The notes below the pieces were generated by a model. It made no database searches and was not told where the DNA came from. It saw nothing but the letters and a program-made list of their open reading frames with translations. A program made the translations under genes and the position numbers. This document shows, in pieces, positions 23,038 through 62,306 of a stretch of 64,000 bases of DNA. The stretch's first letter is position 1, and every line of letters starts with the position of its first letter. The stretch spans positions 103,927 through 167,926 of the forward strand of contig JBLYPW010000002.1 of assembly GCA_048538275.1 (NCBI GenBank), given 5' to 3'. Origin of the DNA: Candidatus Komeilibacteria bacterium (GTDB taxonomy: Bacteria; Patescibacteriota; Patescibacteriia; UBA1558).

Positions 23038-23619
23038 ATGGCTTATGAAGTAAAAGATTTTTCTAGCTTGTTGGGCACGACCGGTTTTTCTGATGATTTG
23101 TTGAATACGCATTTTAAGCTTTATCAGGGATATGTAGCCAATACCAATAAATTGGTGGATAAATTAACCGCTATGTCTGGCGATGATATTCAGTCACCAG
23201 AATACGCTGAGTTAAAAAGACGTTTTGGTTGGGAGTTTAATGGTATGCGTTTGCACGAATATTATTTTGCCAACATGTCTAAAGAAGTTTCAATTTTGCA
23301 GGAAGATGGAGCTTTGCATAAGCAGATTGTTCAAGATTTTGGTTCCTATGATCAATGGCTAGCTGACTTTAAAGGCACCGGCTCTTTACGGGGGATTGGT
23401 TGGTCAATTTTGAGTTATGATCCAATCGGTAAACGTTTATTTAATACTTGGATCAATGAGCACGATTTAGGCCATCTAGCTGGCGCACAACCGATCTTAG
23501 TAATGGATGTTTTTGAGCATGCTTTTGTCTTGGACTATGGTATGCAACGCGCTCAGTATATAGACGCTTTTGTAGCTGCAATAAATTGGCAAGAAGCAGA
23601 ACGCAGATTTACTGCATAG
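23038..23619 (+). CDS. sodA: Fe/Mn superoxide dismutase
   Basis: H...H N-terminal metal ligands; DVFEHAFVLDY C-terminal motif. Confidence 0.8.
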   Translation: MAYEVKDFSSLLGTTGFSDDLLNTHFKLYQGYVANTNKLVDKLTAMSGDDIQSPEYAELKRRFGWEFNGMRLHEYYFANMSKEVSILQEDGALHKQIVQDFGSYDQWLADFKGTGSLRGIGWSILSYDPIGKRLFNTWINEHDLGHLAGAQPILVMDVFEHAFVLDYGMQRAQYIDAFVAAINWQEAERRFTA

Positions 23620-24482: not shown

Positions 24483-24556
24483 GGGGGCGTCGTATAGTGG
24501 TAGTACAGGGGTCTCCAAAACCTCTAGCGTGGGTTCGATTCCTACCGCCCCTGCCA
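24483..24556 (+). tRNA. tRNA-Trp (anticodon CCA)
   Basis: acceptor GGGGGCG/CGCCCCT; loop CUCCAAA; T-loop TTCGATT; short D-loop. Confidence 0.8.
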
Positions 24557-24689
24557 TTTCATTATAGCTTGAACTCGCCGATTCATCTCGCCTTTGGCGC
24601 GATTACTCTTGACTCGTTCGACTATTCCTTTTTTTCTCATTCATTTAACCCTTCGGGTCCAAGTGAATTCGAAGTTAAATATATTAGAC

Positions 24690-25020
24690 CGTTAAGGTCT
24701 TTTTTAATTGGTCAGGAAACCCCGCACGAGCCCCCAGCGAGTGCGGGGATGAATGACTCCTCTCTTAACACGAACCGAAGGGTCGTGTTAAGCTATAACC
24801 ATGAGAATCCGAGCTCTAAATCATTCCACCTATCAACACCAATATCATATAGTTTGGGGAACAAAGTATCGCCGGAAATTTTTGAAAGAGTATGTTAAGC
24901 CAGAAGGATACACCGCAAACAACTACGTTCGGATTCTAATGAAACGAAAGGAAACCCCGCCTGAAAAAAGACTACCTTTGGGTAGTCTTTTTGAGCGCGG
25001 GGAGGATGTCATTTGTTTTA
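24690..25020 (+). mobile_element. decayed IS200/IS605-like remnant: two GGAAACCCCGC...GCGGGG subterminal-type hairpins bracketing a truncated Y1-transposase (TnpA) N-terminal fragment
   Basis: hairpins at about 24700-24746 and 24952-25009 share the 12-mer AGGAAACCCCGC; ORF 24801-25025 begins HSTYQHQYHIVWGTKYRRKFL like IS200 TnpA but lacks the HuH region. Confidence 0.55.
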
Positions 25021-25025
25021 GATAG
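24801..25025 (+). pseudogene. truncated IS200/IS605 TnpA (Y1 transposase) fragment
   Basis: YHIVWGTKYRRKFL matches the TnpA N-terminal beta-strand; the HuH motif is absent. Confidence 0.5.
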
Positions 25026-25108
25026 CTATATTACTATTTTAAAAAACATTGTTGTTTGTCAGTATTTTGTGAGATAATGAATATAGCCAATATTATCAAG
25101 TTTTTTTT

Positions 25109-26992
25109 ATGAATAAAAGGATAAGTTGTATTATTTTAGCTTGCGATTCACACATTACTAAAGGTTTTTCTATTTTTCACAGTTTGTTATCTGTTGTACG
25201 ACAGGATTATCTAAATGTTGAGATTATTATTGTGGAAAATAGTCATAGTAAACCTTCTTATGTAAAAGAGTTAAAGAGGAAGTTCTGCAAGTGGAATGAA
25301 TCAAATAAGGGTAAAATGACTTTAAAATTTATTAATAATACAAAGTCGCTAAGTCGTGGGGCGGCGCGTAATATTGGATTAGAATTTGCAACTGGGAATA
25401 TTATAATTTTTTTAGATGATGATACTATTCTTTTGGGACGAAATTATTTTTCTAAAATAATTAAGTTGTCTAGTAGATATGATTATGGCTATGGGGCGAA
25501 TCGTTATTGGACTTCGAATAAAATGTTTCAGAAAAAACATAGGATATTGTTAAAATTGTTTGAAAATAATGAAATTATCCAGTTAAGATCAATGGTTTCT
25601 TCTCCGTCAGTGGAGGGAAGACAGGATGATGATTCTGCTCATTATTTGAGTAAAACATTTATTGGTAATTTTGGGTTTGTTAAAGCTAATTTAATTAAAA
25701 AGGTGGGAGGATTTCCTAATTTTAATGGGTATGGATATGAAGATGATTTTTTGATGTTTAAATTATATAAATCGTATGCAAAAATGGTCATATTAGACGA
25801 CATGGAAGTTATCCATGTAAATCATAAGGTGTGTGAAAGCGGCAGGGAAAATTTTATACTTTATTTTAAAGAGTTAGTTCGTAGCGGATTTTATGGGTTT
25901 AATATTATTAAAACGCTTATTAGCGGCCACAAAAGAGAAGAAGTGTTGGAGCCTTTAAAAGTTTTACATTTTGATAGTCGGGTGGAAAGTATGTTTGAAA
26001 AATATAGGAGCTTACTACCTATCAATTTATATAATTCTACTATTAAACAGAAACAGTACTGTAAAGATAATTATATTTTGTCAAAGTTACGGTTTGTACA
26101 ACTATTATTTAAATTGGAGAATTCTCCTAGTATTGATGATTTTATTTCTAATAGTAGTGCAGATTTTGATAATTTGGCTAATATCATATCTATTGCCTTA
26201 GATTTTGATTTCATCAAGATGAATGGTGATTCTAAAATTACTTATACTTTTGGTTTTCAGTACACAAGTTTATTCTTAGCTAATTCACACGTTGATCCAA
26301 AATTAATTCCAAAAAATTCATTGAATCAATTTCCGTGTAATATGCAATCAAGGCGAAGGCGGTACAATTTTATTAAAGAGAGATATCCATATGTTGAATA
26401 CTTAAAGTTTGCTATAATAGGGGATGATGATTTTTTAAGTTTGGAATTTATTAATGATTATTGGGCGTGGCCAGTGATTATTGAAAAGGATAGTAGGATA
26501 ACTAGATTGTTAAGGAGTGTAAGTGATAGGTTTATGGTTTATGATCTGGATGTTGCAGATAATGACTCATTGAAAAAATTATCTAAAGTTCAAACCTTTA
26601 TTACAGATCCTCCTTATACTCTTGATGGGGCACTGGCTTTTATTTTCTTCGGTTTGTCTATGTTGGTTAATAGTGATGATATAAAAGAGTTTTACGTTAT
26701 TTTAAATCCAGCTATGATGGGAAGGAAGCTATTTCGTTTGCAGAAAATTCTTGCCAATGCTAATATTATTTTAGTAGATGTTATTAATAACTTTAGTCAA
26801 TATAATTTACCTACTAATTATGTTGAGAATAAACGCGCAGGAAAGTTTTCTGTTCAACATGGTATTAAGAAGAATAGTATTAAAACAAGCTCCTCATCAA
26901 ATATGTACATTTTTTCGACAGTTACGCCTGACTTGCAAGAGGTGAGAAGAAATATTAATTATAATAAAATGTATAATCATTATGATAACTAA
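25109..26992 (+). CDS. bifunctional-looking protein: N-terminal GT2 glycosyltransferase fused to a C-terminal class-I methyltransferase/aminopropyltransferase-like domain (GDDD...DPPY)
   Basis: GT2 motifs: VVENSHS, FLDDDTIL (DxD), GYGYEDDFLMF. C-terminal motifs: IIGDDDFLSLEF, MVYDLDVAD, FITDPPYT. Markedly AT-richer than flanking genes. Confidence 0.65.
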   Translation: MNKRISCIILACDSHITKGFSIFHSLLSVVRQDYLNVEIIIVENSHSKPSYVKELKRKFCKWNESNKGKMTLKFINNTKSLSRGAARNIGLEFATGNIIIFLDDDTILLGRNYFSKIIKLSSRYDYGYGANRYWTSNKMFQKKHRILLKLFENNEIIQLRSMVSSPSVEGRQDDDSAHYLSKTFIGNFGFVKANLIKKVGGFPNFNGYGYEDDFLMFKLYKSYAKMVILDDMEVIHVNHKVCESGRENFILYFKELVRSGFYGFNIIKTLISGHKREEVLEPLKVLHFDSRVESMFEKYRSLLPINLYNSTIKQKQYCKDNYILSKLRFVQLLFKLENSPSIDDFISNSSADFDNLANIISIALDFDFIKMNGDSKITYTFGFQYTSLFLANSHVDPKLIPKNSLNQFPCNMQSRRRRYNFIKERYPYVEYLKFAIIGDDDFLSLEFINDYWAWPVIIEKDSRITRLLRSVSDRFMVYDLDVADNDSLKKLSKVQTFITDPPYTLDGALAFIFFGLSMLVNSDDIKEFYVILNPAMMGRKLFRLQKILANANIILVDVINNFSQYNLPTNYVENKRAGKFSVQHGIKKNSIKTSSSSNMYIFSTVTPDLQEVRRNINYNKMYNHYDN

Positions 26993-28370
26993 ACATAAGC
27001 TTAAGCCAAATGATATTACTTTCTTAAATGAAAGTGATGTTTTATATTCTTTGGATTTTAGAGTATTGAGTGAAAATATAGACTATAAGATACCAACTAT
27101 GTGGAAATATGAAAATATATTACCATGGATACTTTCTGGTAGAAATGTTGTTGTTAATGAAAATTATACTGCCTTAGAGTATCCAAATAAAAATTCATTT
27201 GTTGTTACAAAGAAAACAAAAGATCCAAGAGTATCAATCTATGAAAGAATGTCAAAAGGATTAATGGGGGATAATATAAAAAAATTATGGGTAGCTGTGC
27301 CACATCCTGATGCTGATATTTTTTGTAAGGAAAATAAATTAAAAATTAACTATAATTATGATTCTTATCTCAAGTATAATAATAAAATCGAGCAAAAGAA
27401 ATTACTAGGTAATGCGAGCCCTAATTGGAAACTTATTTCGTCCTTTGATGAAATTAAAGGATTACAAAAAAAATATACAACAGGTTATATTAAGAGAAAG
27501 TTTGGATCGGGTGGCTATACGGTTTTTGAATTAAATAAATTGGATCATAATTTTTCTAAATTATTTAAAGAGTCATCAAATGAATGGTATTTTGAAGAGG
27601 AGGTTAAAGGAAAGGCTTATAGTATTCAATGCGTTAAGGATGGTAAAAATGTAACAGTTTTTGGATTCTCAGAACAAATTATTGAAGGACATAAGTTTTA
27701 TTCTGGTTCTAAGATTTTATCTCTTGATTTACTTAATATAAAGCTTTTTAACCAAGTTAAAAAAGCTTTAAGTAGATTTGGTGAATTTTTAGCTGACTAT
27801 AATGGTTTATTTGGCTTAGATTTTATTATTGATAAAAATAATAAAGTTTTTATTTTAGAGGCAAATATTAGGATAACTGCAGTGACAATTTCTACTTTAT
27901 TATTTAATATGGTGGGTGCAGAATCAGCTCTATTTAGGGAAGATGTAAAGAATGATAATATGGCTAAAGATGATGTGGTTCTCACATGCGAAGTTGACAA
28001 TATGAAGGACGTCCTTAGTTTTAATTCAGTTAAAGGTGTTTTAGGAATGAGCATCTATGTAGATTTTAAAAATTGCTTAGTCAACGTAAAAAGAATGGAT
28101 GATAAAGTTGCTAGAGAAATATCTGAAATTGTTAATATGATAATTAGCAATGTAGAAAAGATAGACTATCATAATTTTTGGCCGTACGGTTGGACATTGT
28201 CATTAATACTATCTAATTCACATTGCGTTATGAGTAGTTGGTATTTAGAGAAAAGAGTCTTGGTTGATGTTTTTAGTTGTAATTTAGATTATGATCAGAA
28301 ACTATTTATTAAGAAAATGTCTGATTATTTTAAGTCTAAAAATAATAAATTTAAAGTAGAATTAAGATAA
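26982..28370 (+). CDS. ATP-grasp family ligase
   Basis: C-terminal ATP-grasp signature GLFGLDFIID...NKVFILEANIR; start overlaps the upstream gene by 11 nt. Confidence 0.65.
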   Translation: MITKHKLKPNDITFLNESDVLYSLDFRVLSENIDYKIPTMWKYENILPWILSGRNVVVNENYTALEYPNKNSFVVTKKTKDPRVSIYERMSKGLMGDNIKKLWVAVPHPDADIFCKENKLKINYNYDSYLKYNNKIEQKKLLGNASPNWKLISSFDEIKGLQKKYTTGYIKRKFGSGGYTVFELNKLDHNFSKLFKESSNEWYFEEEVKGKAYSIQCVKDGKNVTVFGFSEQIIEGHKFYSGSKILSLDLLNIKLFNQVKKALSRFGEFLADYNGLFGLDFIIDKNNKVFILEANIRITAVTISTLLFNMVGAESALFREDVKNDNMAKDDVVLTCEVDNMKDVLSFNSVKGVLGMSIYVDFKNCLVNVKRMDDKVAREISEIVNMIISNVEKIDYHNFWPYGWTLSLILSNSHCVMSSWYLEKRVLVDVFSCNLDYDQKLFIKKMSDYFKSKNNKFKVELR

Positions 28371-28375
28371 ATAGT

Positions 28376-29407
28376 TTGGAAATGAATAATTATATTGTAA
28401 TTCCGCCTTATTATAAGGGTACTGCATTTCAGGAGATTGTAATACATATGCTTGTTGCGGTAAAAAAAACAAAGTACAATATAAAATTTATCGGTCTACT
28501 AGAACCAATAGATAATACCTTATCAGGGTTTTTGTTGGATGATGAGATTTATACCAAGTATCAATCTTTTTTAATTTCTGATTTAATGAATTTGAAGACA
28601 CCTGCTAAAATATTATTTTTGGATTTTTTTAATTTAGGTTTCGATTTATTACGATATTTACATGAACAAACTAATGCGAATGTTAAATATGGATCGTTAA
28701 TTCATGGAGGGTCATTTTTTGATGAAGACATATATAATATGCCGTGGTTGAGTAACTTTGAGAATGCGTGGGCAGATTTATATGATACGATGTATATAGC
28801 TTCAAATTATGGTAAGAATAGACTTCCGGATAGTTTCAAAGATAAGGTTAAAGTTATTCCTTGGGGGATGGATGGGTTTAGAAGTGAAGCATCAGTTAAT
28901 AAAATTAATGATGTTATTTTTCCACATAGATTGAGCCCAGATAAGGGGGTTGAGGATTTTATAATGATTGTTGACTCTTTGCCGCAAGTAAAGTTCATCG
29001 TGACTGTGCCTCAAAAAAAGAGTGTAATTAGCAAAAATAAATATTATAATGTCCTAAAAAAATATACTAATGTAAAATTTATTTTCAATGAGAGTATGGA
29101 AAATCACAATATAACATTATCCTCTGCAAGAGTAGTTTTGAGTTGTGCTAAACAAGAAATTTTTGGCTACTCTATTGCTAAGTCTGTTGCGTCAGGGTGT
29201 ATCCCAGTATTACCAAAAGATCAATGTTATCCAGAATTTTATCAAAGGAAATATTTATACAAGAATATACAAGATGCTATTTCTATGATAGAGGATGTTA
29301 TTATTGAGTCGAAAAGTAATACTTTATCAAATGAGGGCAATAGTAAATGTATTTATGATTTTGAAACATTTTCATTTAAGAACCATTTTGATGATTTTTT
29401 TGGTTAA
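28376..29407 (+). CDS. glycosyltransferase group 1 (GT4-like)
   Basis: C-terminal E-x7-E-like region QEIFGYSIAKSVASGCIPV; FPHRLSPDKG. Confidence 0.6.
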   Translation: MEMNNYIVIPPYYKGTAFQEIVIHMLVAVKKTKYNIKFIGLLEPIDNTLSGFLLDDEIYTKYQSFLISDLMNLKTPAKILFLDFFNLGFDLLRYLHEQTNANVKYGSLIHGGSFFDEDIYNMPWLSNFENAWADLYDTMYIASNYGKNRLPDSFKDKVKVIPWGMDGFRSEASVNKINDVIFPHRLSPDKGVEDFIMIVDSLPQVKFIVTVPQKKSVISKNKYYNVLKKYTNVKFIFNESMENHNITLSSARVVLSCAKQEIFGYSIAKSVASGCIPVLPKDQCYPEFYQRKYLYKNIQDAISMIEDVIIESKSNTLSNEGNSKCIYDFETFSFKNHFDDFFG

Positions 29408-29441
29408 AAAAGAGAGTATATATGATATATACTCTCTTTAG
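29408..29441. terminator. bidirectional terminator between the convergent GT1 and GGCT genes
   Basis: aaagagagtatatat-ga-tatatactctcttt palindrome with A/T runs on both sides. Confidence 0.6.
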
Positions 29442-29854
29442 TAATTAACATCGATTTGGGATACAATTTTTTTTATGTTCTTACATTCTCCGATAATTAC
29501 CGATGATTTAGCAACAAATACTATACCTTTGGATTTTTTACCATCAACTTCATAAAAAGTTGTCTCTTTCGGTTCATATAGAGGGCCTTCAAATTCATTA
29601 AGGCGTGATTTTAGTACGGCAAGTGAATTATTAGATACTGTGAACTGAGTTAACCATGCACTAATTTGCAGACCATTATCATCTAATATCACAATTGGGT
29701 ATTTAAAGATATTATTTGGCTCTGTTTCATCCGTCACTTCATACAAGTACCCCTTGATAAAACCAAGAGTTCTTTTTGTGGGTGATGTTTTGAGAATTTT
29801 TTTAATAAGTTTAACATTTTTTAATGATCCGTAAAATATAAATGAACAATTCAT
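29438..29854 (-). CDS. gamma-glutamyl cyclotransferase-like (AIG2/GGCT family) protein
   Basis: N-terminal FIFYGSLKN (YGSL/YGTL motif); LGFIKGYLYEV. Confidence 0.6.
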   Translation of the reverse strand: MNCSFIFYGSLKNVKLIKKILKTSPTKRTLGFIKGYLYEVTDETEPNNIFKYPIVILDDNGLQISAWLTQFTVSNNSLAVLKSRLNEFEGPLYEPKETTFYEVDGKKSKGIVFVAKSSVIIGECKNIKKIVSQIDVNY

Positions 29855-30068
29855 TTTACCTCCTTTTTTGTTTGATTTTATATATTAACATAGTTTTAAT
29901 AATTGTCAATTGTAGTGTCTTTTTTTGGTTAGCTAATAAGATTATTAAGCTAGTGATGATTATTTACAGATCAGTATTCAGACTGGGTTAATAATTTTGG
30001 TATGTAAATATAATCAGTTTCTTGTTGAATTATGGTTATAACTTCATCTACGACTGACTGCCATGAAA

Positions 30069-30098
30069 GCTCAAAGGATGAACCTTTGAGTTTTTTTT
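30069..30098 (+). terminator. orphan intrinsic terminator (no annotated + strand gene upstream)
   Basis: gctcaaagg-atgaa-cctttgag followed by T8. Confidence 0.6.
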
Positions 30099-30222
30099 GG
30101 GCAGGTCGCAAGGTACCAATAGTATGTAATCTGTTTATTGTCGTTAATTTTAGATTTGACAGTTTTGGTTGGTGGTGCTAAATTTTAGGCGTAAAGGTTG
30201 TTTTAAAATAAGGAGGGGTAAA

Positions 30223-30624
30223 GTGAATAATTTTACTGTTTTGTTTTGGCGCTTTATCGTTATTATTTGTTTATTGCCATTGTTTAGCAATTGTACTGCA
30301 AGTAATACGACTTATGCGACAGAGGTTAGTGCAGTTTCTTTGCGGATGATTGCTCAATTGCAGTATCTGAATCAGCAGATTACCGAAGTAATAATTTTGG
30401 CTGACATTACCAATCCATCGGGTTATCATTATGTTATTATTAGCACGGTGATCGGCAAGCAAAGACAGACTTGGGTACTGACTGATTGGCGGGGGACAGA
30501 GACTTTCCCACAGACCGTTGTAGCGGTAAATCAGTTGGGCGGTTGGCAGGTAATTCCTCATGCAATGGGAGGGCTGGAGATCAGGATTGATCCCTTGGTT
30601 ATTTATGAAGTTAGAAAACAGTAA
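30223..30624 (+). CDS. hypothetical secreted protein (GTG start after a GGAGGGG RBS)
   Basis: signal-peptide-like N-terminus; ORF-track start at 30169 is probably too far upstream. Confidence 0.4.
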   Translation: MNNFTVLFWRFIVIICLLPLFSNCTASNTTYATEVSAVSLRMIAQLQYLNQQITEVIILADITNPSGYHYVIISTVIGKQRQTWVLTDWRGTETFPQTVVAVNQLGGWQVIPHAMGGLEIRIDPLVIYEVRKQ

Positions 30625-30704
30625 GCATAATGTTTGAAGACGATGTCAGTTTGGCGTCGTCTTTTCATTTGAGTTTCAGCCTGTTATTTTGTTATAATAC
30701 AACT

Positions 30705-31286
30705 ATGAAATTAAAAGATACTGTACAGCATAGCACTAAAAAAGAAATTCTTTTACGTTTTTTGATTATGTTTGGCGTGCTGTTAGTATATTTTGTTTTT
30801 TTGTCTTGGCAATACGGTATGGCCACGGGTGGTTGGGTAGCCATATTGACTTGGAGTTTTTTTGTTTTGTGCACGCCAATTGCTGATGCTGGTTTTTTAT
30901 TGGATTTTCCTTTGCGTTTATTATTTAATATCAAGATGGTTTTTAGTGAGGTTATTGTTTGGGTTATAGCTATTGTCGTCAATGTGATTGCCGTTCAGTT
31001 TAGTCCCGATATTTATGGCAAAACAGTTTTGACTAGCATATTTTATCAAATTTTAACTAATTTAAATCCTTATGGCCTCATTATCTTATTAGCTACCGCT
31101 GGTACTTTTTTATCAGTCAGGTTTGGGGATGAATTAATGGATGTTATGTACCATCATGAGCGCGCTATATTTCATAGACACGGTCTGTGGGTAAGGATAT
31201 TGGGTTTTGTTACCATTTTTGTTTTAACTGTCATTATATATAATATTTTGATTCAGCAATTTGGTTTAACCGAGTTTATTCAATAG
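30705..31286 (+). CDS. hypothetical integral membrane protein
   Basis: several hydrophobic helices; start placed at MKLKDTV after a TATAAT box. Confidence 0.45.
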   Translation: MKLKDTVQHSTKKEILLRFLIMFGVLLVYFVFLSWQYGMATGGWVAILTWSFFVLCTPIADAGFLLDFPLRLLFNIKMVFSEVIVWVIAIVVNVIAVQFSPDIYGKTVLTSIFYQILTNLNPYGLIILLATAGTFLSVRFGDELMDVMYHHERAIFHRHGLWVRILGFVTIFVLTVIIYNILIQQFGLTEFIQ

Positions 31287-41304: not shown

Positions 41305-42303
41305 CTATATCCTCTTTCTTTTTTTTAGTATAATTTTAGCTGGACAGCTAGAATTTATTTGAGAAGATTTAGAGATTATTTCTAGCAGTGCCAGGTGTTC
41401 ATTATTTAGTAGCTTTAAACTGTTTGTCAAGAGTGATAATATTGCAAGAGCTTTGTTTCGCAGTGTAGATGATGGGTATCTTAGTATATCTGATGAGAGA
41501 ATATCAAATAGTTTAGATTTCTCAGTATTAGGTAGATTTGTAACTAGTGGTATTAGTTGTAATAGTATAATATTTTTCTCTTTTTCTGATCCAGTAGTAA
41601 GATTTTTCAGTAATTTTTTAAATAGTATAGAATCCTTTTTTACCCAGCTCATAGCATATAATTCCTCATAGGTGTAGTTATTTTCATTATCACGATTAAG
41701 TAAATTATTATCTGTATCCTCCATTATCTGGTTGATTTTTTTTTCGATTTTGTATAATTGTCTATTCTGTGAAAATAACATTCCATCAATTTTTATATAT
41801 TTTATATTTACATTTGATTTTTCAAATAGAAGTTCAGATAATTTTTCATGCTTCTTTATAATAGAATTTAGTTTATTATTTTGGTTTGAAGATTGTTTTT
41901 TTGGGCCTATCATTTGAAGTAGTTTAGGATTTTTGGTTATATCTATATTGATTACAGTATGTCCCTTATCTGGATAATAAGGATTCATTGTAGAACACAC
42001 AATCCAATTATTCTTTTCTAATTCATGAATTATTTTTTTTATAATAAATCTAAATTCTTTTGTGTTATATTTATTACCTAAATAGTATCCAACAATTTTT
42101 GGATTGTTTTCTAAAATAGGTAGAGATGATCCGCTATATGACCACAATTCAATGTCTTTGAGAGTGTATTTCATGCAATTATTATAACATAAATTGGGCT
42201 TATTTATATAATTATAACCTTGGTGAGTGTTCACGTAGAAAATAGGGTATTTTAGAACCATTTTTTTGTAAGATTTATATTTATTACAATCTATTCTTGA
42301 CAA
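41305..42303 (-). CDS. hypothetical protein (AT-rich orphan, 332 aa)
   Basis: long ORF with strongly AT-biased codons; no recognisable motif. Confidence 0.45.
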   Translation of the reverse strand: MSRIDCNKYKSYKKMVLKYPIFYVNTHQGYNYINKPNLCYNNCMKYTLKDIELWSYSGSSLPILENNPKIVGYYLGNKYNTKEFRFIIKKIIHELEKNNWIVCSTMNPYYPDKGHTVINIDITKNPKLLQMIGPKKQSSNQNNKLNSIIKKHEKLSELLFEKSNVNIKYIKIDGMLFSQNRQLYKIEKKINQIMEDTDNNLLNRDNENNYTYEELYAMSWVKKDSILFKKLLKNLTTGSEKEKNIILLQLIPLVTNLPNTEKSKLFDILSSDILRYPSSTLRNKALAILSLLTNSLKLLNNEHLALLEIISKSSQINSSCPAKIILKKRKRI

Positions 42304-42328: not shown

Positions 42329-42355
42329 TTAGCACTCTTGAATGGAGAGTGCTAA
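42329..42355 (+). promoter_or_regulatory. CIRCE operator (HrcA binding site)
   Basis: TTAGCACTC-N9-GAGTGCTAA perfect consensus immediately upstream of hrcA. Confidence 0.9.
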
Positions 42356-42366
42356 TAGGAAAACTT

Positions 42367-43074
42367 ATGACTTTAAATAGCAGACAAGAAAAATTACTGT
42401 ATTCTATTATTGATCAGTATGTTAAAACCGCAGAGCCGGTTGGTTCCAAACCTTTAGTAGATAGCGGTAAATTTTCGGTTTCACCAGCCACTATTCGTAA
42501 TGAAATGGCCGAATTGGAGAAAAATGGCTTAGTTTGCCAACCGTACACTTCTGCTGGTCGCATTCCCACCGAAGCTGGATTTCGTTATTATTTAGAGCAG
42601 AAATTACAGTCTGGCAAATTAGCTCAAGCAGATATAAAGCGATTGCAAAAATATTTAAATAAATTGAATGATGAACAGTTAGAAATTGTTATTAAACAAA
42701 GTGCTAAAGAGGTGGCGACTATGGTCAATGCCGCCGTAATTGCCGCTTTTGGACCAGGACAAGTTTATTTTACTGGTATCAGCAATGTTTTTAAACAACC
42801 TGAATTTTATCGTCCGGATATGATTATAAATATTAGTAGAGTGATTGATCATTTGGATCAAGTATTGCTAAGCTTATTGGACGCCATTGATAATACTCAG
42901 GTATTTATAGGTAGCGACAATCCTTTTGGTGAAGACACGGGTGCTATAATTAGCTCTTATCAGTATGATGATGAGCATAAAGGCTTATTTGGTATTTTAG
43001 GTCCGATACGCATGGATTATCAACGTAATTTTAATATTGTTAATTATTTAACCAAGCAAATATCTCATGTCTAA
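42367..43074 (+). CDS. hrcA: heat-inducible transcription repressor HrcA
   Basis: MTLNSRQEKLLYSIIDQYVKTAEPVGSK N-terminus; start placed after CIRCE. Confidence 0.85.
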   Translation: MTLNSRQEKLLYSIIDQYVKTAEPVGSKPLVDSGKFSVSPATIRNEMAELEKNGLVCQPYTSAGRIPTEAGFRYYLEQKLQSGKLAQADIKRLQKYLNKLNDEQLEIVIKQSAKEVATMVNAAVIAAFGPGQVYFTGISNVFKQPEFYRPDMIINISRVIDHLDQVLLSLLDAIDNTQVFIGSDNPFGEDTGAIISSYQYDDEHKGLFGILGPIRMDYQRNFNIVNYLTKQISHV

Positions 43075-56196: not shown

Positions 56197-56270
56197 TCGG
56201 GGATCGTCTAATGGTAGGACAGCTGGTTCTGGTCCAGCCAATCGGGGTTCGAATCCCTGTCCCCGAGCCA
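56197..56270 (+). tRNA. tRNA-Gln (anticodon CTG)
   Basis: acceptor TCGGGGA/TCCCCGA; anticodon stem GCTGG/CCAGC with loop UUCUGGU; T-loop TTCGAAT. Confidence 0.8.
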
Positions 56271-56332
56271 TCAAGGAACTTTTGTGAAAGCAGAAGTTTT
56301 TTGTTTACCTTAAATAAGGTATACTAAATTAT

Positions 56333-57265
56333 ATGAACAATAAAGCTGTAATAATTTTAACCATCATTTCAATTTCATTATCACTGTTATTACTGTTTTT
56401 TTTATTAATAGGCATATATTGGTTTAAACGTGGAGATGCTTGTTTAACACAACCACCATATTTAAATTGTCATACCCAAAATAAGTTTGAGGAAATAGAT
56501 GCTGAATTTAATAATTTATCAGGACAAATATTAAGCCTAAATGAACCATCTATTTTTAGTATTGATAAAAATGAAGGCGTTTTTTCTTTTGACCATATAG
56601 GCGAAGATACTGATTTTGGAGTAGGCTGGACTAGGATAATGCAAAATGAAGAGATTAAAGATTCTTTAGGTTTTTACACATACTATATAGATCCTATTCT
56701 TACACCTTTAACAAAAGATACTTTGATTGGATCAGCTTGGCAATACCCACAAGATTCAAAACTATATAATGGACCATTTATTAATTATTATTTAGATTTT
56801 AAAACCAGAAAAACAGTTGAATTGCCGACTAAAGGCAGGATTATTTCCAAATCTCAAGATGGACAAAAAGTGGTTTTTCTGGAAAGCGCTTGCGACAAGG
56901 AACATATACCCGAACCAACAGCGGATTGCAATAATTTAGATTTGAGTTTGAGGATTATTGATCTAACGTCAGATTTAAATGGTATGATGATTAATCATTA
57001 TTACGCGATGAACCATTGGACAGACCAGGGACCACCCTATGTTAATTTTTTGGATTTTGGCAAACTTGTATTCTCACCCGACGGAAATAGGCTGGCAATG
57101 GAAATTAAAATTGAACAAATTGACTATGACACCCCGAGTGAATATTGGACTCTATTTATCGCTGATACTAAGACAGGAGAAATTATCAAACAGAACAACA
57201 GATTATCCAAGAGTGGATATGAATATATGTTTTGGTCAGATAATGAAAATGTGATTTATTGGTAA
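56333..57265 (+). CDS. hypothetical secreted/membrane-anchored protein (AT-rich)
   Basis: N-terminal TM; no recognisable motif. Confidence 0.45.
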   Translation: MNNKAVIILTIISISLSLLLLFFLLIGIYWFKRGDACLTQPPYLNCHTQNKFEEIDAEFNNLSGQILSLNEPSIFSIDKNEGVFSFDHIGEDTDFGVGWTRIMQNEEIKDSLGFYTYYIDPILTPLTKDTLIGSAWQYPQDSKLYNGPFINYYLDFKTRKTVELPTKGRIISKSQDGQKVVFLESACDKEHIPEPTADCNNLDLSLRIIDLTSDLNGMMINHYYAMNHWTDQGPPYVNFLDFGKLVFSPDGNRLAMEIKIEQIDYDTPSEYWTLFIADTKTGEIIKQNNRLSKSGYEYMFWSDNENVIYW

Positions 57266-57269
57266 ATTA

Positions 57270-57914
57270 ATGAAAAAGATAATAACTACTTTAATTATTC
57301 TAATTGTTATTTTATTGTTTTTTGTTTTTGCAATAAATATTCATATAAACAAAATTGGTAGTAATATGTGTGATTTGGATAATATAAATCAACAAGCCGC
57401 TTTAGTTTTGGGTGCTAAAGTTTGGAATAATGGTAACTTGAGCGATATTTTTAAAGATAGGATTAATACAGCTATTGATTTGTATAATAAGGGAGAAGTA
57501 GAAAAAATTTTAGTTAGCGGCGATCATGGTCAAACGGATTATGACGAAGTAAATACCGCTAAAGAGTATCTGTTAGACAATGGGGTAAGGTTAGAAGATA
57601 TTTTTTTAGATCATGCTGGGTTTGATACTTATGATAGTCTTTATCGCGCTCGAGATGTTTTTAAAGCCGAATCATTGGTTGTAGTTACACAAAACTTTCA
57701 TCTACCGCGAGCTTTATATATAAGTAACAAGTTAGGCTTGGATTCTTGTGGTGTAAGTGCTGATTTACATAAGTATTTAGGTGAAACCACTAGGAATAGA
57801 AGAGAAATTTTGGCAAAAGTAAAAGCTTGGTTAAATATTATTTTTAATTCAACCCCCAAATATTTAGGAGATAAAATTCCCTTGTCTGGTAGCGGTTTTA
57901 ATAGTTGGGATTAA
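57270..57914 (+). CDS. DUF218 (SanA/YdcF/ElyC-like) domain protein
   Basis: N-terminal TM; ALVLGAKVWNNG...ILVSGDHG pattern. Confidence 0.6.
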   Translation: MKKIITTLIILIVILLFFVFAINIHINKIGSNMCDLDNINQQAALVLGAKVWNNGNLSDIFKDRINTAIDLYNKGEVEKILVSGDHGQTDYDEVNTAKEYLLDNGVRLEDIFLDHAGFDTYDSLYRARDVFKAESLVVVTQNFHLPRALYISNKLGLDSCGVSADLHKYLGETTRNRREILAKVKAWLNIIFNSTPKYLGDKIPLSGSGFNSWD

Positions 57915-57926
57915 TGAAATGATTAT

Positions 57927-60065: not shown

Positions 60066-60162
60066 TTTAAATTGTATCCAAGTTTAGTAAAATGGAGAAT
60101 GGCTGTTATTCTAGAGACTTGATTACAGTTCGAATGTTAGCCTTGAAGAGTTTAACAAAAGA

Positions 60163-60192
60163 GTTCTAAAGTTGTCCCGGTATGCGAGCCAA
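60163..60192 (+). repeat. 30-bp direct repeat copy 1 (GTTCTAAAGTTGTCCCGGTATGCGAGCCAA)
   Basis: identical copy at 61449-61478; the two copies flank the Fic gene. Confidence 0.85.
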
Positions 60193-60213
60193 TTTTTTAA
60201 GGGATTTTTAGCA

Positions 60214-60335
60214 GATAATTGCAGATTGCAGCGATTGAGGTTATAGTAATGCAGCAATAAATTGTTGTTTTTATTACTAAATTTGATGATTTATATATAT
60301 TATGCAGCAATAACGTATTTGAAATGCAGCAATTA
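60214..60335 (+). promoter_or_regulatory. array of TGCAGCAAT-type repeats upstream of the Fic gene (candidate operator array)
   Basis: ATGCAGCAATAA at 60249-60260 and 60302-60313; ATGCAGCAATTA at 60324-60335; TTGCAGATTGCAGCGATTG at 60219-60237. Confidence 0.5.
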
Positions 60336-60352
60336 AGTGCTATAATAAAAGC

Positions 60353-61399: not shown

Positions 61400-61448
61400 T
61401 ATTTTTTATAAGAACATTGCCATCTAATTGTTGTTTGTGGTTAAAAAA

Positions 61449-61478
61449 GTTCTAAAGTTGTCCCGGTATGCGAGCCAA
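61449..61478 (+). repeat. 30-bp direct repeat copy 2
   Basis: identical to 60163-60192. Confidence 0.85.
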
Positions 61479-61547
61479 AAGACCATTCATGATAATAAGT
61501 GGTTTTTTTGTTTTGACTTTTATTTAAGAACATAAGATAATAAGACC

Positions 61548-62264: not shown

Positions 62265-62306
62265 TAGAGTAATACTTGTTTTGTATTGCTAGATGTAAAT
62301 AAAAAA

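What the first reader, a model, noticed from the sequence alone, without database searches (positions are those of the whole stretch)
24557..30100. AT-rich horizontally acquired island 3' of tRNA-Trp: GT2–methyltransferase fusion, ATP-grasp ligase, GT4-like transferase and a convergent GGCT enzyme
The segment immediately after tRNA-Trp is visibly more AT-rich than the housekeeping flanks. It opens with a decayed IS200/IS605-type remnant, which suggests integration at the tRNA. It then encodes an apparent three-gene + strand operon. Gene 1 is a GT2 glycosyltransferase fused to a GDDD/DPPY methyltransferase-like domain. Gene 2, starting with an 11-nt overlap, is an ATP-grasp ligase. Gene 3 is a group-1 glycosyltransferase. 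The operon converges, via a bidirectional terminator, on a gamma-glutamyl-cyclotransferase-like (AIG2/GGCT) gene.

The pairing of an ATP-grasp amide ligase with a GGCT enzyme parallels gamma-glutamyl protecting-group chemistry. In butirosin biosynthesis, BtrG is a GGCT-like enzyme that removes a gamma-glutamyl protecting group installed by the ligase BtrJ. Adding two glycosyltransferases and an alkyl/methyl-transfer domain, this reads as a compact cassette for an amino-acid-decorated, methylated or aminoalkylated glycoconjugate, possibly a cell-surface glycan or small glycoside. I do not recognise this exact combination as a described system.
Basis: partly seen in the sequence, partly recalled or inferred. 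Interest (0 to 1): 0.8.

Follow-up and report, generated by a model that had tools for sequence, protein, structure and literature searches.

The report
Acquired cassette for decorating 7-deazaguanine bases
An AT-rich, horizontally acquired four-gene cassette next to tRNA-Trp in a Komeilibacteria (CPR) genome combines an aminopropyl-transfer module, two sugar transferases and an amide ligase/cleaver pair; in other genomes and phages it sits beside genes that make or import queuosine precursors, so it probably builds a still-undescribed modified 7-deazaguanine, not the cell-surface sugar first proposed.

Summary
Window 25.05-29.9 kb is the lowest-GC stretch of the window (0.286 vs 0.377). It follows tRNA-Trp and an IS200 remnant, and it is absent from the syntenic site of the nearest Komeilibacteria genome. 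It encodes four genes:
- g1: GT2 + BpsA-type aminopropyltransferase.
- g3: a GT-B/GT4 glycosyltransferase (AF2 pLDDT 94).
- g4: a convergent GGACT-like gene.

The cassette recurs in at least 47 lineages (CPR, Bipolaricaulota, Bacteroidota, Planctomycetota, Firmicutes, Proteobacteria), and the SpeD domain sits in a different position in different versions. Its commonest non-core neighbour is the queuosine-precursor transporter. QueF, QueD, QueE-like genes or a full FolE-QueD-QueE-QueC set also adjoin it. g3's nearest relatives lie in phage modules of FolE, QueD and QueE, often with a TGT/DpdA-like gene, including cultured phages (PA5oct group, ACP17).

Best reading (from genomic context only): the cassette tailors a preQ1-type 7-deazaguanine by dcSAM-dependent aminopropylation, reversible amine acylation and glycosylation. 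Whether the product ends up in tRNA, in DNA or as a free metabolite is unresolved. I found no description of this cassette in the literature library.

The parts
24483..24556 (+). tRNA-Trp (CCA). This is the left anchor of the variable locus.
   Evidence: ARAGORN and Rfam tRNA at 59 bits. The same tRNA sits at the syntenic site of the sister genome, L156 8372-8445.
24571..24800 (.). Non-coding stretch where nucleotide homology to the sister genome stops. It contains a terminator-like hairpin at 24686-24700 that resembles the hairpin lying directly after tRNA-Trp in the sister genome.
   Evidence: The blastn alignment of the window to L156 ends at window position 24570. The hairpin AGACCGTTAAGGTCT plus a T-run was found. 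The L156 sequence reads agaccttttaaggtcttttttt.
24801..25025 (+). Decayed IS200/IS605 transposase remnant: a 74-aa ORF in which only the N-terminal ~30 aa are recognisable. An adjacent hairpin lies at 24955-25002.
   Evidence: Pfam Y1_Tnp aa 10-35, E 7.3e-5. NCBIfam transpos_IS200 aa 4-34, E 1.5e-6. Inverted repeat I4.
25109..26992 (+). g1, 627 aa. It has three parts: a GT2 (GT-A) glycosyltransferase domain (aa ~1-300), a middle domain (aa ~300-430) and a BpsA_C-type aminopropyltransferase domain (aa ~430-627; GDDD at 438-441, DPPY at 500-503).
   Evidence: PF00535 at 50 bits and PF01861 at 55.7 bits. PDB matches: BpsA 5xnc at 5.9e-15, 2qm3, and GT2 enzymes 5hea and 1h7l. Invariant D104/D105, G438-D441 and D500-Y503. 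About 90 cluster representatives share the same fusion.
26982..28370 (+). g2, 462 aa. It has an N-terminal pre-ATP-grasp domain (aa 1-130), an ATP-grasp ligase domain (aa ~130-350) and a SpeD/AdoMetDC-fold pyruvoyl-decarboxylase domain (aa ~350-462). The putative pyruvoyl-precursor Ser413 is at nt 28218-28220. g2 overlaps g1 by 11 nt.
   Evidence: PF02655 at 47.8 bits and PF02675 at 43.3 bits. TIGR03330 at 1.3e-7. Alignment to T. maritima AdoMetDC. phrog_3125, S-adenosylmethionine decarboxylase, at 1.9e-11. Invariant E293-x-N295-x-R297. PDB ATP-grasp hits. Ser413 position.
28376..29407 (+). g3, 343 aa (341 aa if translation starts at the ATG at 28382). It is a GT-B/GT4-type glycosyltransferase from a clade whose other members sit next to 7-deazaguanine synthesis genes in phages.
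   Evidence: AF2 pLDDT 94.3, pTM 0.91. Foldseek PDB: BshA 6.5e-11, then PglA, SenB, tetrahydrobiopterin glucosyltransferase and MshA. Family profile vs PDB: WbaZ-1 5.6e-6. 27 of 28 family members hit PF00534. Phage relatives.
29404..29444 (.). AT-rich hairpin between the convergent g3 and g4, with an A-run upstream and a T-run downstream. It is a candidate bidirectional terminator.
   Evidence: Inverted repeat I9, 20-nt arms, 90% complementary, 1 nt apart. The consensus terminator scan did not call it.
29438..29854 (-). g4, 138 aa. It is a GGACT/GGCT-like (gamma-glutamylamine cyclotransferase-like) protein, convergent on the operon.
   Evidence: PF06094 E 1.8e-3, 19.3 bits, below the cutoff of 22.8. 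5 of 14 family members hit GGACT. YG(S/T)L, the E88-G89 pair and other columns are invariant. hhalign to clear GGACT proteins from sister cassettes gives 68% probability, E 4.8e-5. A gene that passes the GGACT cutoff lies in the same position and orientation in L023. Homologues are present in 12 of 47 cassette lineages.
29882..29909 (-). Promoter-like site upstream of g4 (TTGACA, 16 nt, TAATAT, with an extended -10 TG).
   Evidence: Consensus scan, 10 of 12 matches. This is a consensus match only.
29855..30160 (.). Right-hand edge of the AT-rich segment. GC returns to about 0.37-0.40 from about 30.1 kb. No direct repeat of the tRNA 3' end is present.
   Evidence: Composition. Repeat search.

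Best explanation
The segment is a horizontally acquired copy of a conserved, mobile biosynthetic cassette. It is inserted in a variable locus just 3' of tRNA-Trp in a Candidatus Komeilibacteria genome. Its most likely job is to tailor a preQ1-type 7-deazaguanine, that is, a queuosine precursor.

Proposed steps; all the chemistry is inferred and none of it is shown:
1. The SpeD-fold domain of g2 self-processes at Ser413 and decarboxylates S-adenosylmethionine to dcSAM.
2. The BpsA-type domain of g1 transfers the aminopropyl group of dcSAM to an amine, most plausibly the exocyclic aminomethyl nitrogen of preQ1.
3. The ATP-grasp domain of g2 acylates the new terminal amine with an amino-acid carboxylate, possibly the gamma-carboxyl of glutamate. 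g4 can release it again as 5-oxoproline. This would work either as a transient protecting group or as a reversible cap.
4. The GT2 domain of g1 and the GT4-type g3 add one or two sugars.

The precursor would be imported or supplied by the host, because the window holds no deazaguanine genes of its own. Whether tailoring happens on the free base or nucleotide, on tRNA after insertion by the housekeeping TGT, or on DNA is not resolved.

Shown: the domain identities, the island status, the conservation of the cassette and the shifting position of its SpeD domain, and its genomic linkage to deazaguanine genes.
Inferred: the substrate, the order of steps and the product.
For: Island status:
- Lowest-GC stretch of the window, with low GC3, plus an IS200 remnant.
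- The sister Komeilibacteria genome L156 keeps the same order (Fur, rubredoxin, Prx, tRNA-Thr, L33, ~140-aa gene, tRNA-Trp, then HU, MscS, Trx, 400-aa gene) with 46-84% identical proteins. It has only two small unrelated genes where the cassette sits.
- Only ~20 of 185,579 species representatives carry the cassette, spread over unrelated phyla.

Functional coupling of the modules:
- g1, g2 and g3 are syntenic in nearly all of ~60 loci.
- The SpeD domain is fused to the ATP-grasp C-terminus (window, L005, L010, L011, L023 and others), stands alone upstream or downstream of g1 (23 loci), or is fused to the g1 N-terminus (P0059/L001).
- The GDDD motif that positions the dcSAM aminopropyl group in BpsA (PMC12979288) is invariant.

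Deazaguanine link:
- A queuosine-precursor transporter (TIGR00697, 113 bits against a cutoff of 51) is the commonest non-core neighbour: 15 loci, 9 dereplicated lineages, usually immediately adjacent.
- QueF lies directly upstream of g1, or heads the operon, in L010, L056, L058 and L154/L155.
- QueD, QueE, FolE and QueC lie in the same direction shortly downstream of the cassette in L012, each above its NCBIfam cutoff.
- QueD-like and QueE-like genes occur in further loci.
- In total at least 14 of 47 lineages have such a gene within 3.5 kb.

Independent link through g3:
- In 68 phage-like loci holding g3 relatives, FolE is present in 51, QueE in 48, QueD in 43 and a TGT/DpdA-like protein (phrog_887, 4.4e-14) in 34.
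- GenBank annotators independently call QueD, GTP cyclohydrolase I and QueE beside the g3-like gene in phages ACP17 and PAC2.

Acylate/deacylate logic:
- ATP-grasp pairs with g4, GGACT or a C26 GATase. GNAT pairs with an amidohydrolase-like or a histone-deacetylase-family enzyme.

Chemical precedent:
- The preQ1 amine is methylated or formylated in phage DNA (PMC10516641).
- preQ0 is glycosylated in huimycin, and CDG is amide-linked to lysine in roseomycin (bioRxiv 10.64898/2026.04.15.718813).
- Queuosine in tRNA is glycosylated by a GT4 enzyme and a GT2 enzyme (PMC11755703, PMC5902498).
Against: - All functional evidence is guilt by association. No substrate was tested.
- The window's 64 kb contain no detectable YhhQ, QueC/D/E/F, FolE or TGT. 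About two thirds of cassette lineages show no deazaguanine gene within 3.5 kb, although many of those contigs are truncated.
- No preQ1 riboswitch was found.
- No TGT/DpdA recurs beside the cellular cassettes; only L015 has one nearby.
- In the window's subtype of the SpeD domain, the residues aligned to T. maritima Glu62 and His68 are Asn and Ser. SpeD homologues are known to have been neofunctionalised into arginine or ornithine decarboxylases, including in CPR (PMC10407285). dcSAM production is therefore not assured.
- g1 lacks BpsA's C-terminal acidic aminopropyl-carrier cluster and has DPPY where BpsA has DPPE.
- An aminopropylated preQ1 offers no obvious hydroxyl for O-glycosylation, so what the two glycosyltransferases act on is unexplained.
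- The g4 fold is not structurally confirmed: the single-sequence AF2 model failed (pLDDT 39).
Confidence: 0.55

Rival explanations
1. First reader's reading. The cassette builds an amino-acid-decorated, aminoalkylated cell-surface glycan or small glycoside that has nothing to do with nucleobases. The island is a surface-variation locus.
For: GT2 plus GT4 is the commonest pairing in polysaccharide loci. Sources often annotate the proteins as 'glycosyltransferase involved in cell wall biosynthesis'. AT-rich, tRNA-adjacent islands often carry surface-glycan genes. Extra GT2 genes accompany the cassette in 9 loci. The genes immediately downstream in the window encode membrane or secreted proteins.
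Against: g1-g4 have no membrane segments. No Wzx/Wzy, ABC exporter, polyprenyl-phosphate glycosyltransferase or sugar-nucleotide synthesis gene recurs among the neighbours. The recurrent neighbours are deazaguanine, NUDIX, radical-SAM and acyl/deacyl enzymes instead. g3's relatives sit in phage DNA-replication/deazaguanine modules.
Confidence: 0.12
2. A polyamine-conjugate pathway. SpeD plus the BpsA-type enzyme extend an ordinary polyamine. The ATP-grasp enzyme gamma-glutamylates it or ligates it to an amino acid, as with glutathionylspermidine or gamma-glutamylpolyamines. The glycosyltransferases then glycosylate the conjugate. The link to deazaguanine genes would be indirect, or would reflect a different substrate for the Vut_1-family transporter.
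For: The only characterised members of PF01861 act on spermidine and related polyamines. GNAT, histone-deacetylase-family (acetylpolyamine amidohydrolase-type), Peptidase_C26 (PuuD-type) and GGACT neighbours are all enzymes of polyamine acyl metabolism. More distant BpsA-like plus SpeD pairs without any glycosyltransferase exist in Hyphomicrobiales.
Against: This does not explain QueF, QueD, QueE, QueC and FolE beside the cassette, since these have no role in polyamine metabolism. It does not explain the transporter reaching the NCBIfam queuosine-precursor-transporter cutoff, nor the phage g3 clade in CDG-synthesis modules. g1 lacks BpsA's acidic carrier tail.
Confidence: 0.15
3. A deazaguanine amide variant. 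The ATP-grasp enzyme activates the carboxylate of 7-carboxy-7-deazaguanine (CDG), or an amino-acid carboxylate, and joins it to a polyamine built by the SpeD/BpsA module. This would give a roseomycin-like CDG-polyamine amide that is then glycosylated. The aminopropyl group is therefore not placed on preQ1 itself. In a sub-variant the SpeD domain is an arginine or ornithine decarboxylase that supplies the amine.
For: Phage relatives of g3 co-occur with FolE, QueD and QueE but almost never with QueC (1 of 68), which points to CDG as the base. QueE-like genes without QueC adjoin several cellular cassettes. There is precedent for CDG-lysine amides with ATP-grasp tailoring. SpeD neofunctionalisation is known. 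The window's SpeD subtype has non-canonical residues.
Against: QueF, which makes preQ1 from preQ0, heads or adjoins the cassette in several lineages. L012 includes QueC. The ATP-grasp enzyme is replaced by a GNAT in two architectures; a GNAT acylates an amine and cannot activate a carboxylate. The phage modules contain neither BpsA nor SpeD nor ATP-grasp.
Confidence: 0.12

Closest known systems
[quoted passage not shown]
   Same: The g1 C-terminal domain is a PF01861 member with the catalytically essential GDDD motif, and it matches the BpsA crystal structures 5xnc and 6j27. A SpeD-fold domain that could supply dcSAM is always in or near the cassette.
   Different: The domain is fused to a GT2 domain. 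It has DPPY where BpsA has DPPE. It lacks the C-terminal acidic carrier cluster and has a conserved Ser-rich YSSSSNLYIF stretch there instead. It occurs in mesophilic, mostly CPR genomes. Its genomic partners are glycosyltransferases, a ligase and deazaguanine genes, not polyamine genes.
Queuosine tailoring on tRNA: QueA (alkylation of the preQ1 amine with the ribosyl moiety of SAM; from my own knowledge), and QTMAN/GTDC1 (GT4) and QTGAL/B3GNTL1 (GT2), which glycosylate queuosine
   Same: The same precursor pool is implicated (queuosine-precursor transporter, QueF, QueCDE/FolE neighbours). The proposed first step alkylates the same amine using a different part of the AdoMet skeleton. The two known queuosine glycosyltransferases belong to the same two broad CAZy families as the g1 N-terminal domain and g3.
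   Different: No specific homology to QTMAN was detected: no PF12038 hit among 28 members, and no eukaryotic proteins were retrieved. GT2 and GT4 are the two largest glycosyltransferase families, so sharing them is weak evidence. No queA, queG or tgt gene is linked to the cassette.
Phage and bacterial 7-deazaguanine DNA modification (DpdA with FolE/QueD/QueE/QueC; DpdM and DpdN acting on the dPreQ1 amine)
   Same: g3's relatives sit in phage modules of FolE, QueD and QueE, often with a TGT/DpdA-like gene. N-substitution of the preQ1 amine after insertion into DNA is established chemistry.
   Different: Eight DNA derivatives are known and none is glycosylated or aminopropylated. The cellular cassettes lack DpdA. 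The phage modules lack the BpsA, SpeD and ATP-grasp parts. There are no PADLOC matches.
7-Deazapurine natural products: huimycin and dapiramicin (glycosylated preQ0 derivatives) and roseomycin A (a CDG-lysine amide)
   Same: In these pathways a GT-B glycosyltransferase and amide-forming enzymes act on free 7-deazaguanine bases made by FolE, QueD, QueE and sometimes QueC.
   Different: Those clusters are actinobacterial, use methyltransferases and QueC-like amide synthetases, and have no aminopropyl module. The present cassette is a 4-5 kb mobile unit found mostly in ultrasmall CPR genomes.
   Same: An ATP-dependent ligase is paired with a GGCT/GGACT-fold or Peptidase_C26 enzyme that can remove a gamma-glutamyl group from an amine. 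The pairing recurs across cassette lineages.
   Different: No acyl carrier protein or aminoglycoside genes are present. The ligase is an ATP-grasp_3/YheCD-type enzyme fused to SpeD. In other architectures the pair is replaced by GNAT plus a deacetylase, which suggests generic reversible amine capping and not gamma-glutamyl chemistry specifically.

Membership tests
BpsA / PF01861 aminopropyltransferase | Domain match above the Pfam gathering score | tested here: met
   PF01861, 55.7 bits against a cutoff of 27, aa 434-622. PDB 5xnc at 5.9e-15 with the family profile.
BpsA / PF01861 aminopropyltransferase | GDDD motif (Asp159/Asp160 in Tk-BpsA position the dcSAM aminopropyl group) | tested here: met
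   G438-D439-D440-D441 are invariant or nearly invariant in 34 homologues and align to GDDD of 5xnc.
BpsA / PF01861 aminopropyltransferase | C-terminal acidic cluster that carries the aminopropyl group (ping-pong mechanism) | tested here: not met
   The g1 C-terminus has a conserved Ser-rich YSSSSNLYIF stretch and no Glu/Asp cluster. The feature is defined in PMC12979288.
BpsA / PF01861 aminopropyltransferase | Spermidine to N4-bis(aminopropyl)spermidine activity | not testable with these tools
   This needs an enzyme assay.
Class 1b AdoMet decarboxylase (SpeD) | PF02675 match above the gathering score | tested here: met
   43.3 bits against a cutoff of 25, aa 358-459. TIGR03330 scores 31.9 bits, below its equivalog cutoff of 75.65.
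Class 1b AdoMet decarboxylase (SpeD) | Pyruvoyl-precursor serine and the active-site cysteine (residue numbering from my memory of the T. maritima enzyme) | tested here: met
   Ser413 aligns with Ser63 and the Cys in DVFSC aligns with Cys83 of T. maritima AdoMetDC.
Class 1b AdoMet decarboxylase (SpeD) | Canonical Glu-Ser cleavage dipeptide and the HTWPE histidine | tested here: not met
   The window has Asn-Ser and SSWYLE. The whole ATP-grasp-fused subtype has [E/D/N]SH and [ST]SW. The standalone and N-terminally fused SpeD copies of other cassettes are canonical: ESH...H(T/V)WPE.
Class 1b AdoMet decarboxylase (SpeD) | Substrate is AdoMet and not arginine or ornithine | not testable with these tools
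   Neofunctionalised homologues exist (PMC10407285). That paper's text gives no sequence diagnostic.
ATP-grasp ligase | ATP-grasp domain above cutoff, with the conserved nucleotide/Mg-binding E-x-N motif | tested here: met
   PF02655, 47.8 bits against a cutoff of 23.2. E293-x-N295-x-R297, K171 and G177-G178 are invariant in 19 sequences. PDB ATP-grasp hits 3df7 and 7r8p.
GT2 (GT-A) glycosyltransferase | PF00535 above cutoff, with a DxD motif | tested here: met
   50 bits against a cutoff of 23.3. D104 is nearly invariant and D105 invariant. E-D-D lies at 211-213. PDB GalT1 5hea at 3.3e-9 and SpsA.
GT4 (GT-B) glycosyltransferase | Two-Rossmann GT-B fold | tested here: met
   AF2 pLDDT 94.3. 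Foldseek probability 1.00 to BshA, PglA, SenB and MshA, TM 0.6-0.7.
GT4 (GT-B) glycosyltransferase | PF00534 above the gathering score; E-x7-E motif | tested here: inconclusive
   The window protein scores 23.5 bits against a cutoff of 26.4. 27 of 28 relatives hit PF00534, best E 1.3e-11. The first Glu (E261) is invariant. The position of the second Glu is a nearly invariant Lys269.
GGACT / GGCT fold | PF06094 above the gathering score | tested here: not met
   19.3 bits against a cutoff of 22.8. Only 5 of 14 family members hit, best E 1.5e-3.
GGACT / GGCT fold | N-terminal YGxL motif and a catalytic glutamate | tested here: met
   Y7, G8 and L10, and E88-G89, are invariant or nearly invariant. 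They align with YG(S/T)L and YEG of clear GGACT proteins from sister cassettes.
GGACT / GGCT fold | Three-dimensional fold | tested here: inconclusive
   The single-sequence AF2 model failed (pLDDT 39). The family profile has no sequence-level PDB hit. hhalign probability is 68%.
tRNA-adjacent genomic island | Deviant composition, tRNA adjacency and absence from the syntenic site of a relative | tested here: met
tRNA-adjacent genomic island | Integrase and a direct repeat of the tRNA 3' end (att sites) | tested here: not met
   There is no integrase in the segment and no direct repeat of the tRNA end of 14 nt or more. Only an IS200 remnant is present.
Queuosine / 7-deazaguanine pathway (accessory tailoring module) | Physical linkage to genuine deazaguanine genes | tested here: met
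   Linkage is seen in homologous cassettes. It includes the transporter, QueF, and QueC/D/E/FolE above NCBIfam cutoffs. Linkage is not met within this window itself.
Queuosine / 7-deazaguanine pathway (accessory tailoring module) | Demonstrated 7-deazaguanine substrate or product | not testable with these tools
   This needs LC-MS/MS of nucleosides or metabolites, or enzyme assays.
Dpd-type DNA modification system | A DpdA/TGT-family transglycosylase within the module | tested here: not met
   A DpdA/TGT-like gene is absent from the cellular cassettes, and the TGT motif scan finds one only near L015. It is present in 34 of 68 phage modules holding g3 relatives. There are no PADLOC hits.

The most novel reading that the evidence does not exclude
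CPR bacteria, a scatter of other phyla and many phages make a previously unrecognised family of hypermodified 7-deazaguanines. The phage versions would be glycosylated. The cellular versions would also carry a dcSAM-derived aminopropyl (polyamine-like) arm with a removable acyl cap. These bases would be installed in tRNA, as an alternative to queuosine in organisms that only salvage preQ0 or preQ1, or in DNA, as a new anti-restriction or self-marking base. The BpsA-type enzyme would then be the first aminopropyltransferase known to act on a nucleobase. The g3 clade would be the first prokaryotic or viral glycosyltransferase family dedicated to deazaguanines.
Probability: 0.35. Interest if true: 0.9.

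Novelty: new variant of a known kind. Interest (0 to 1): 0.78.

Why it matters
If the inference holds, it adds new chemistry to the 7-deazaguanine family: aminopropylation from dcSAM, glycosylation and reversible acyl capping. The known derivatives (queuosine, archaeosine, and the preQ0, preQ1, ADG, CDG and DG forms in DNA) matter for translation fidelity and for phage-host restriction conflicts.

It would give a function to a BpsA-like family that NCBI currently names 'bis-aminopropyl spermidine synthase family protein' in mesophilic CPR genomes, where branched polyamines make little sense.

It would also explain why ultrasmall, auxotrophic bacteria keep a 4-5 kb mobile cassette beside a queuosine-precursor importer.

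Finally, it flags a conserved glycosyltransferase + u115 + FolE/QueD/QueE module, often with a DpdA-like gene, in more than 60 phage contigs. That module also occurs in culturable phages (the PA5oct group, ACP17, Xanthomonas BUDD/X1), so the hypothesis can be tested directly by nucleoside mass spectrometry.

Tried and rejected
1. Specific homology of g3 to eukaryotic QTMAN/GTDC1. This began as my own recollection of similar motifs. I keep it only as an analogy at family level.
2. preQ1 or other riboswitches upstream of the cassette. None was found in the window at E<=1 or in 11 loci at gathering score.
3. Known anti-phage defence systems. There are no PADLOC hits for g1-g4 or for the phage proteins.
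4. Single-sequence AlphaFold of g4. The model was unusable (pLDDT 39), so no fold search was run on it.
5. att-type direct repeats of the tRNA-Trp end at the far boundary. None was found.
6. g1-type fusion in viral contigs. None was found, so the aminopropyl module appears to be cellular only.
7. TGT/DpdA next to the cellular cassettes. Only L015 has one.
8. tRNA identity as a functional clue. The cassettes abut tRNA-Trp, Asn, Gln, Glu, Ser, Cys and Leu genes. I read this as integration hot spots and not as substrate tRNAs.
9. Literature. Searches combining BpsA, aminopropyltransferase, glycosyltransferase, ATP-grasp, preQ1, dcSAM and DpdA found no description of this cassette.
10. A sequence diagnostic separating true AdoMetDC from neofunctionalised SpeD. 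None is given in the text of PMC10407285.

Full report
**Source and observation**

The window is from a Candidatus Komeilibacteria (CPR/Patescibacteria) MAG. g1, g3 and the flanking MscS gene are each 100% identical to NCBI proteins from one 200,731-bp contig.

The described features are all present.
- tRNA-Trp(CCA) is at 24483-24556.
- A 74-aa ORF at 24801-25025 retains only the N-terminal ~30 residues of an IS200/IS605 transposase. A 22-nt-arm hairpin lies beside it.
- The stretch 25051-29900 has GC 0.286 against 0.377 elsewhere. It is the lowest-GC 4.85-kb stretch of the window. GC3 is 0.20-0.25 against 0.32-0.52 in the flanking genes.
- Three plus-strand genes (g1 25109-26992; g2 26982-28370, overlapping g1 by 11 nt; g3 28376-29407) converge on g4 (29438-29854, minus strand). 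An AT-rich 20-nt-arm hairpin flanked by A- and T-runs separates g3 from g4.

**Domain content**

- g1 is a GT2 domain plus a BpsA_C domain, both above Pfam cutoffs. Its DDD, GDDD and DPPY motifs are invariant across 34 homologues. It matches the BpsA crystal structures.
- g2 is an ATP-grasp ligase (PF02655, 47.8 bits; invariant E-x-N-x-R). Its last ~110 residues are a SpeD/AdoMet-decarboxylase-fold domain (PF02675, 43.3 bits against a cutoff of 25; T. maritima AdoMetDC; phrog_3125).
- g3 is a GT-B/GT4 glycosyltransferase. The AF2 model has pLDDT 94.3. Foldseek finds BshA, PglA, SenB, tetrahydrobiopterin glucosyltransferase and MshA at probability 1.0. The family profile hits WbaZ-1.
- g4 falls below the GGACT Pfam cutoff. 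It keeps the YG(S/T)L and (F/Y)EG signatures as invariant columns. It aligns by hhalign (68% probability, E 4.8e-5) to clear GGACT proteins that occupy the same position in sister cassettes. A single-sequence structure prediction failed, so I treat the fold as probable and not proven.
- None of the four proteins has a predicted membrane segment.

**It is an acquired island**

The nearest available Komeilibacteria genome (GCA_048538235.1, locus L156) keeps the flanking order: Fur, rubredoxin, peroxiredoxin, tRNA-Thr, L33, a ~140-aa gene and tRNA-Trp, then HU, MscS, thioredoxin and a 400-aa gene. The flanking proteins are 46-84% identical.

Between tRNA-Trp and HU that genome has only a terminator hairpin and two small unrelated genes. 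Nucleotide homology with the window ends 14 nt after the tRNA. So the tRNA-Trp to HU interval is a variable locus, and the cassette is missing from it in the closest relative.

No integrase or att-type repeat is present. Homologous cassettes abut various tRNA genes in other genomes. One copy lies among type I R-M, integrase and Cas9 genes. The GTDB species-representative scan found the cassette in only ~20 of 185,579 species. They are spread over several CPR lineages, Acetivibrio, Gammaproteobacteria, Phycisphaerales and Bacteroidota. This is a lower bound, because retrieval depends on sequence patterns.

**The cassette is a conserved unit whose domains shuffle**

I examined ~60 loci from genomes and metagenomes, which dereplicate to 47 lineages at 80% identity. 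Among the lineages, g3 is present in 41, the GT2 domain in 37, the ATP-grasp in 33 and a SpeD gene or domain in 31.

The SpeD domain occupies three positions:
- C-terminal to the ATP-grasp, as in the window;
- standalone, upstream or downstream of g1;
- N-terminal to GT2-BpsA_C, in a marine protein seen in 73 assembly blocks.

The GT2 and BpsA parts can also be separate genes. This shifting placement argues that dcSAM production, aminopropyl transfer, glycosyl transfer and ligation serve one pathway.

There are three architectures:
- V1: [SpeD]-g1-g2-g3-[g4], as in the window.
- V2: g3, an amidohydrolase-like gene, g1, SpeD, GNAT, and often a transporter.
- V3: QueF, a 163-aa gene, GT2, BpsA_C, g3, a second GT-B-like gene, SpeD, a histone-deacetylase-family enzyme and GNAT, followed by a convergent radical SAM/SPASM gene.

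In all three architectures an amine-acylating enzyme (ATP-grasp or GNAT) is accompanied by a deacylase-type enzyme (GGACT-like, Peptidase_C26-type, amidohydrolase-like or deacetylase). In the dereplicated set, which covers V1 and V2, 38 lineages have the acylating enzyme and 27 have both.

**The link to 7-deazaguanine**

The commonest non-core neighbour is a Vut_1/YhhQ-family protein that passes the NCBIfam 'queuosine precursor transporter' cutoff. It occurs in 15 loci (9 lineages) and usually abuts the cassette.
- QueF-like genes sit directly upstream of g1, or head the operon, in L010, L056, L058 and L154/L155.
- In an Acetivibrio MAG, g1-g2-g3 is followed on the same strand, after two reductase/activase-type genes, by QueD, QueE, FolE and QueC, each above its NCBIfam cutoff.
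- QueD-like and QueE-like genes adjoin further cassettes.
- At least 14 of 47 lineages have such a gene within 3.5 kb, despite many truncated contigs. By my own rough estimate, a handful of such genes per ~1000-gene genome would give about 4% by chance.

A second, independent line comes from g3. Its nearest outgroups are phage proteins.
- I examined 68 phage-like loci. Most came from a search for two g3 motifs and were not chosen for their neighbours. Of these, 51 have FolE, 48 QueE, 43 QueD and only 1 QueC.
- 34 have a protein matching phrog_887, 'queuine tRNA-ribosyltransferase' (TGT/DpdA-like). 59 have a conserved 115-aa protein of unknown function.
- Cultured phages carry the glycosyltransferase too. 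The GenBank annotators of Acidovorax phage ACP17 and Pseudomonas phage PAC2 (PA5oct group) independently call QueD, GTP cyclohydrolase I and 7-carboxy-7-deazaguanine synthase beside it, inside the replication module.
- The g3 superfamily is large: 477 representatives at E<1e-30. Two further sampled members again sit with a PRTase-GTP-cyclohydrolase fusion or with QueF.

**Proposed mechanism (inferred)**

1. SpeD makes dcSAM.
2. The BpsA-type domain places an aminopropyl group on an amine, most economically the exocyclic amine of preQ1. That is the product of QueF, one of the substrates of the E. coli member of the transporter family (NF008406 description), and the atom that known enzymes already alkylate, methylate or formylate (QueA from my own knowledge; DpdM and the formyl derivative from PMC10516641).
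3. The ATP-grasp enzyme (or GNAT) caps the new primary amine. g4 (or a C26, amidohydrolase or deacetylase enzyme) removes the cap.
4. The GT2 domain and g3 add sugars.

Whether the reactions occur on the free base or nucleotide, on tRNA or on DNA cannot be decided here.
- The cellular cassettes lack TGT/DpdA. This fits use of the housekeeping TGT (tRNA) or a free product.
- NUDIX, CYTH, kinase and, in phages, PRTase neighbours hint at nucleotide-level intermediates.
- The DpdA-like genes and the replication-module context of the phage relatives point to DNA.

**Weak points**

- The window itself has no deazaguanine genes.
- There is no riboswitch.
- In the window's SpeD subtype, Asn replaces the Glu before the processing Ser, and Ser replaces the His aligned to T. 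maritima His68. SpeD homologues can be arginine or ornithine decarboxylases (PMC10407285).
- g1 lacks BpsA's acidic carrier tail.
- The acceptor atoms for the two glycosyltransferases are unexplained.
- Everything beyond domain identity and synteny is inference.

**Comparison with known systems, and novelty**

The parts belong to known families: GT2, GT4, BpsA_C, SpeD, ATP-grasp and GGACT-like. The combination, and its linkage to queuosine-precursor genes, appears in none of the literature searches.
- A 2026 genome-mining preprint on 7-deazapurine clusters covers only actinobacterial natural products.
- The reference survey of phage deazaguanines lists eight derivatives and no glycosylated or aminopropylated form.
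- NCBI names g1 'bis-aminopropyl spermidine synthase family protein'. That name fails one defining BpsA feature, the acidic carrier cluster.

I classify the cassette as a new variant of a known kind: a new tailoring branch of 7-deazaguanine metabolism. Interest is 0.78. The cassette is conserved, mobile and widespread in microbial dark matter. It points to unknown nucleobase chemistry, and it can be tested directly in culturable phages and by heterologous expression.

Noticed in passing
L082-L149 (IMG/VR and Logan phage-like contigs); GenBank phages PP408249.1 (L150) and KY979132.2 (L151): A recurring phage module consists of a TGT/DpdA-like protein (phrog_887), a 115-aa protein of unknown function (phrog_17812), a g3-like GT4 glycosyltransferase, QueD, QueE and FolE. 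QueC is almost always missing (1 of 68 loci). A radical SAM/SPASM protein or a phosphoribosyltransferase is sometimes present. The module occurs in culturable phages (PA5oct group, ACP17, Xanthomonas BUDD/X1, Burkholderia BCSR5, Synechococcus BUCT-ZZ01). It suggests an undescribed glycosylated CDG-type base.
   Followed up: partly
window 56197-62300: There is a second AT-rich patch (GC 0.26-0.33) directly 3' of tRNA-Gln(CTG). It encodes an unknown 310-aa protein, a DUF218 protein, a 712-aa DUF2807 adhesin-like protein, an HTH-Fic/DOC protein and an RNase_T/ExoX-like exonuclease. It looks like another tRNA-adjacent island.
   Followed up: partly
window 41305-42303 (minus strand): A low-GC patch (0.27) holds a 332-aa ORF with no Pfam match, divergent from an hrcA-like repressor gene (42349-43074).
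   Followed up: no
window 23038-23619 versus L156 7169-7561: In the conserved oxidative-stress cluster (Fur, rubredoxin, peroxiredoxin), this genome has an Fe/Mn-SOD-like gene (my own reading of the sequence). The sister Komeilibacteria genome has a desulfoferrodoxin (superoxide reductase) at that position. This is a non-homologous replacement at one position.
   Followed up: no
window 24571-24685: About 115 nt lie between tRNA-Trp and a terminator-like hairpin (24686-24700). In the sister genome a similar hairpin follows the tRNA almost directly. This could be a small extra insertion or the scar of earlier integration events.
   Followed up: no
window 30169-31286: Two genes for membrane or secreted proteins (151 aa and 218 aa; no Pfam match) lie between the cassette and HU. 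They have no homologue at the sister genome's syntenic site, so the variable locus extends beyond the AT-rich cassette.
   Followed up: partly
L001-L003, L017, L053 (marine contigs, including a Phycisphaerales MAG; protein P0059): A triple fusion AdoMet_dc-GT2-BpsA_C (727 aa) is identical across many Tara and marine assemblies (73 assembly blocks). It is flanked by type I R-M, a DprA-like gene, NUDIX, HTH regulators, an integrase and Cas9, which is a mobile or defence-island setting.
   Followed up: partly
L066 13459-14877; L152 74-892: Two unusual fusions occur near cassette or g3-like genes: GGACT fused to an APH-type kinase (472 aa), and a phosphoribosyltransferase fused to GTP cyclohydrolase I (272 aa). 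Both hint at nucleotide-level intermediates.
   Followed up: no
L012 7249-9038: Between the cassette and the QueD-QueE-FolE-QueC genes, the Acetivibrio MAG encodes a double-cubane-cluster reductase-like protein and an acyl-CoA-dehydratase-type activase. This would be an unexpected ATP-driven reductase pair in a deazaguanine context.
   Followed up: no
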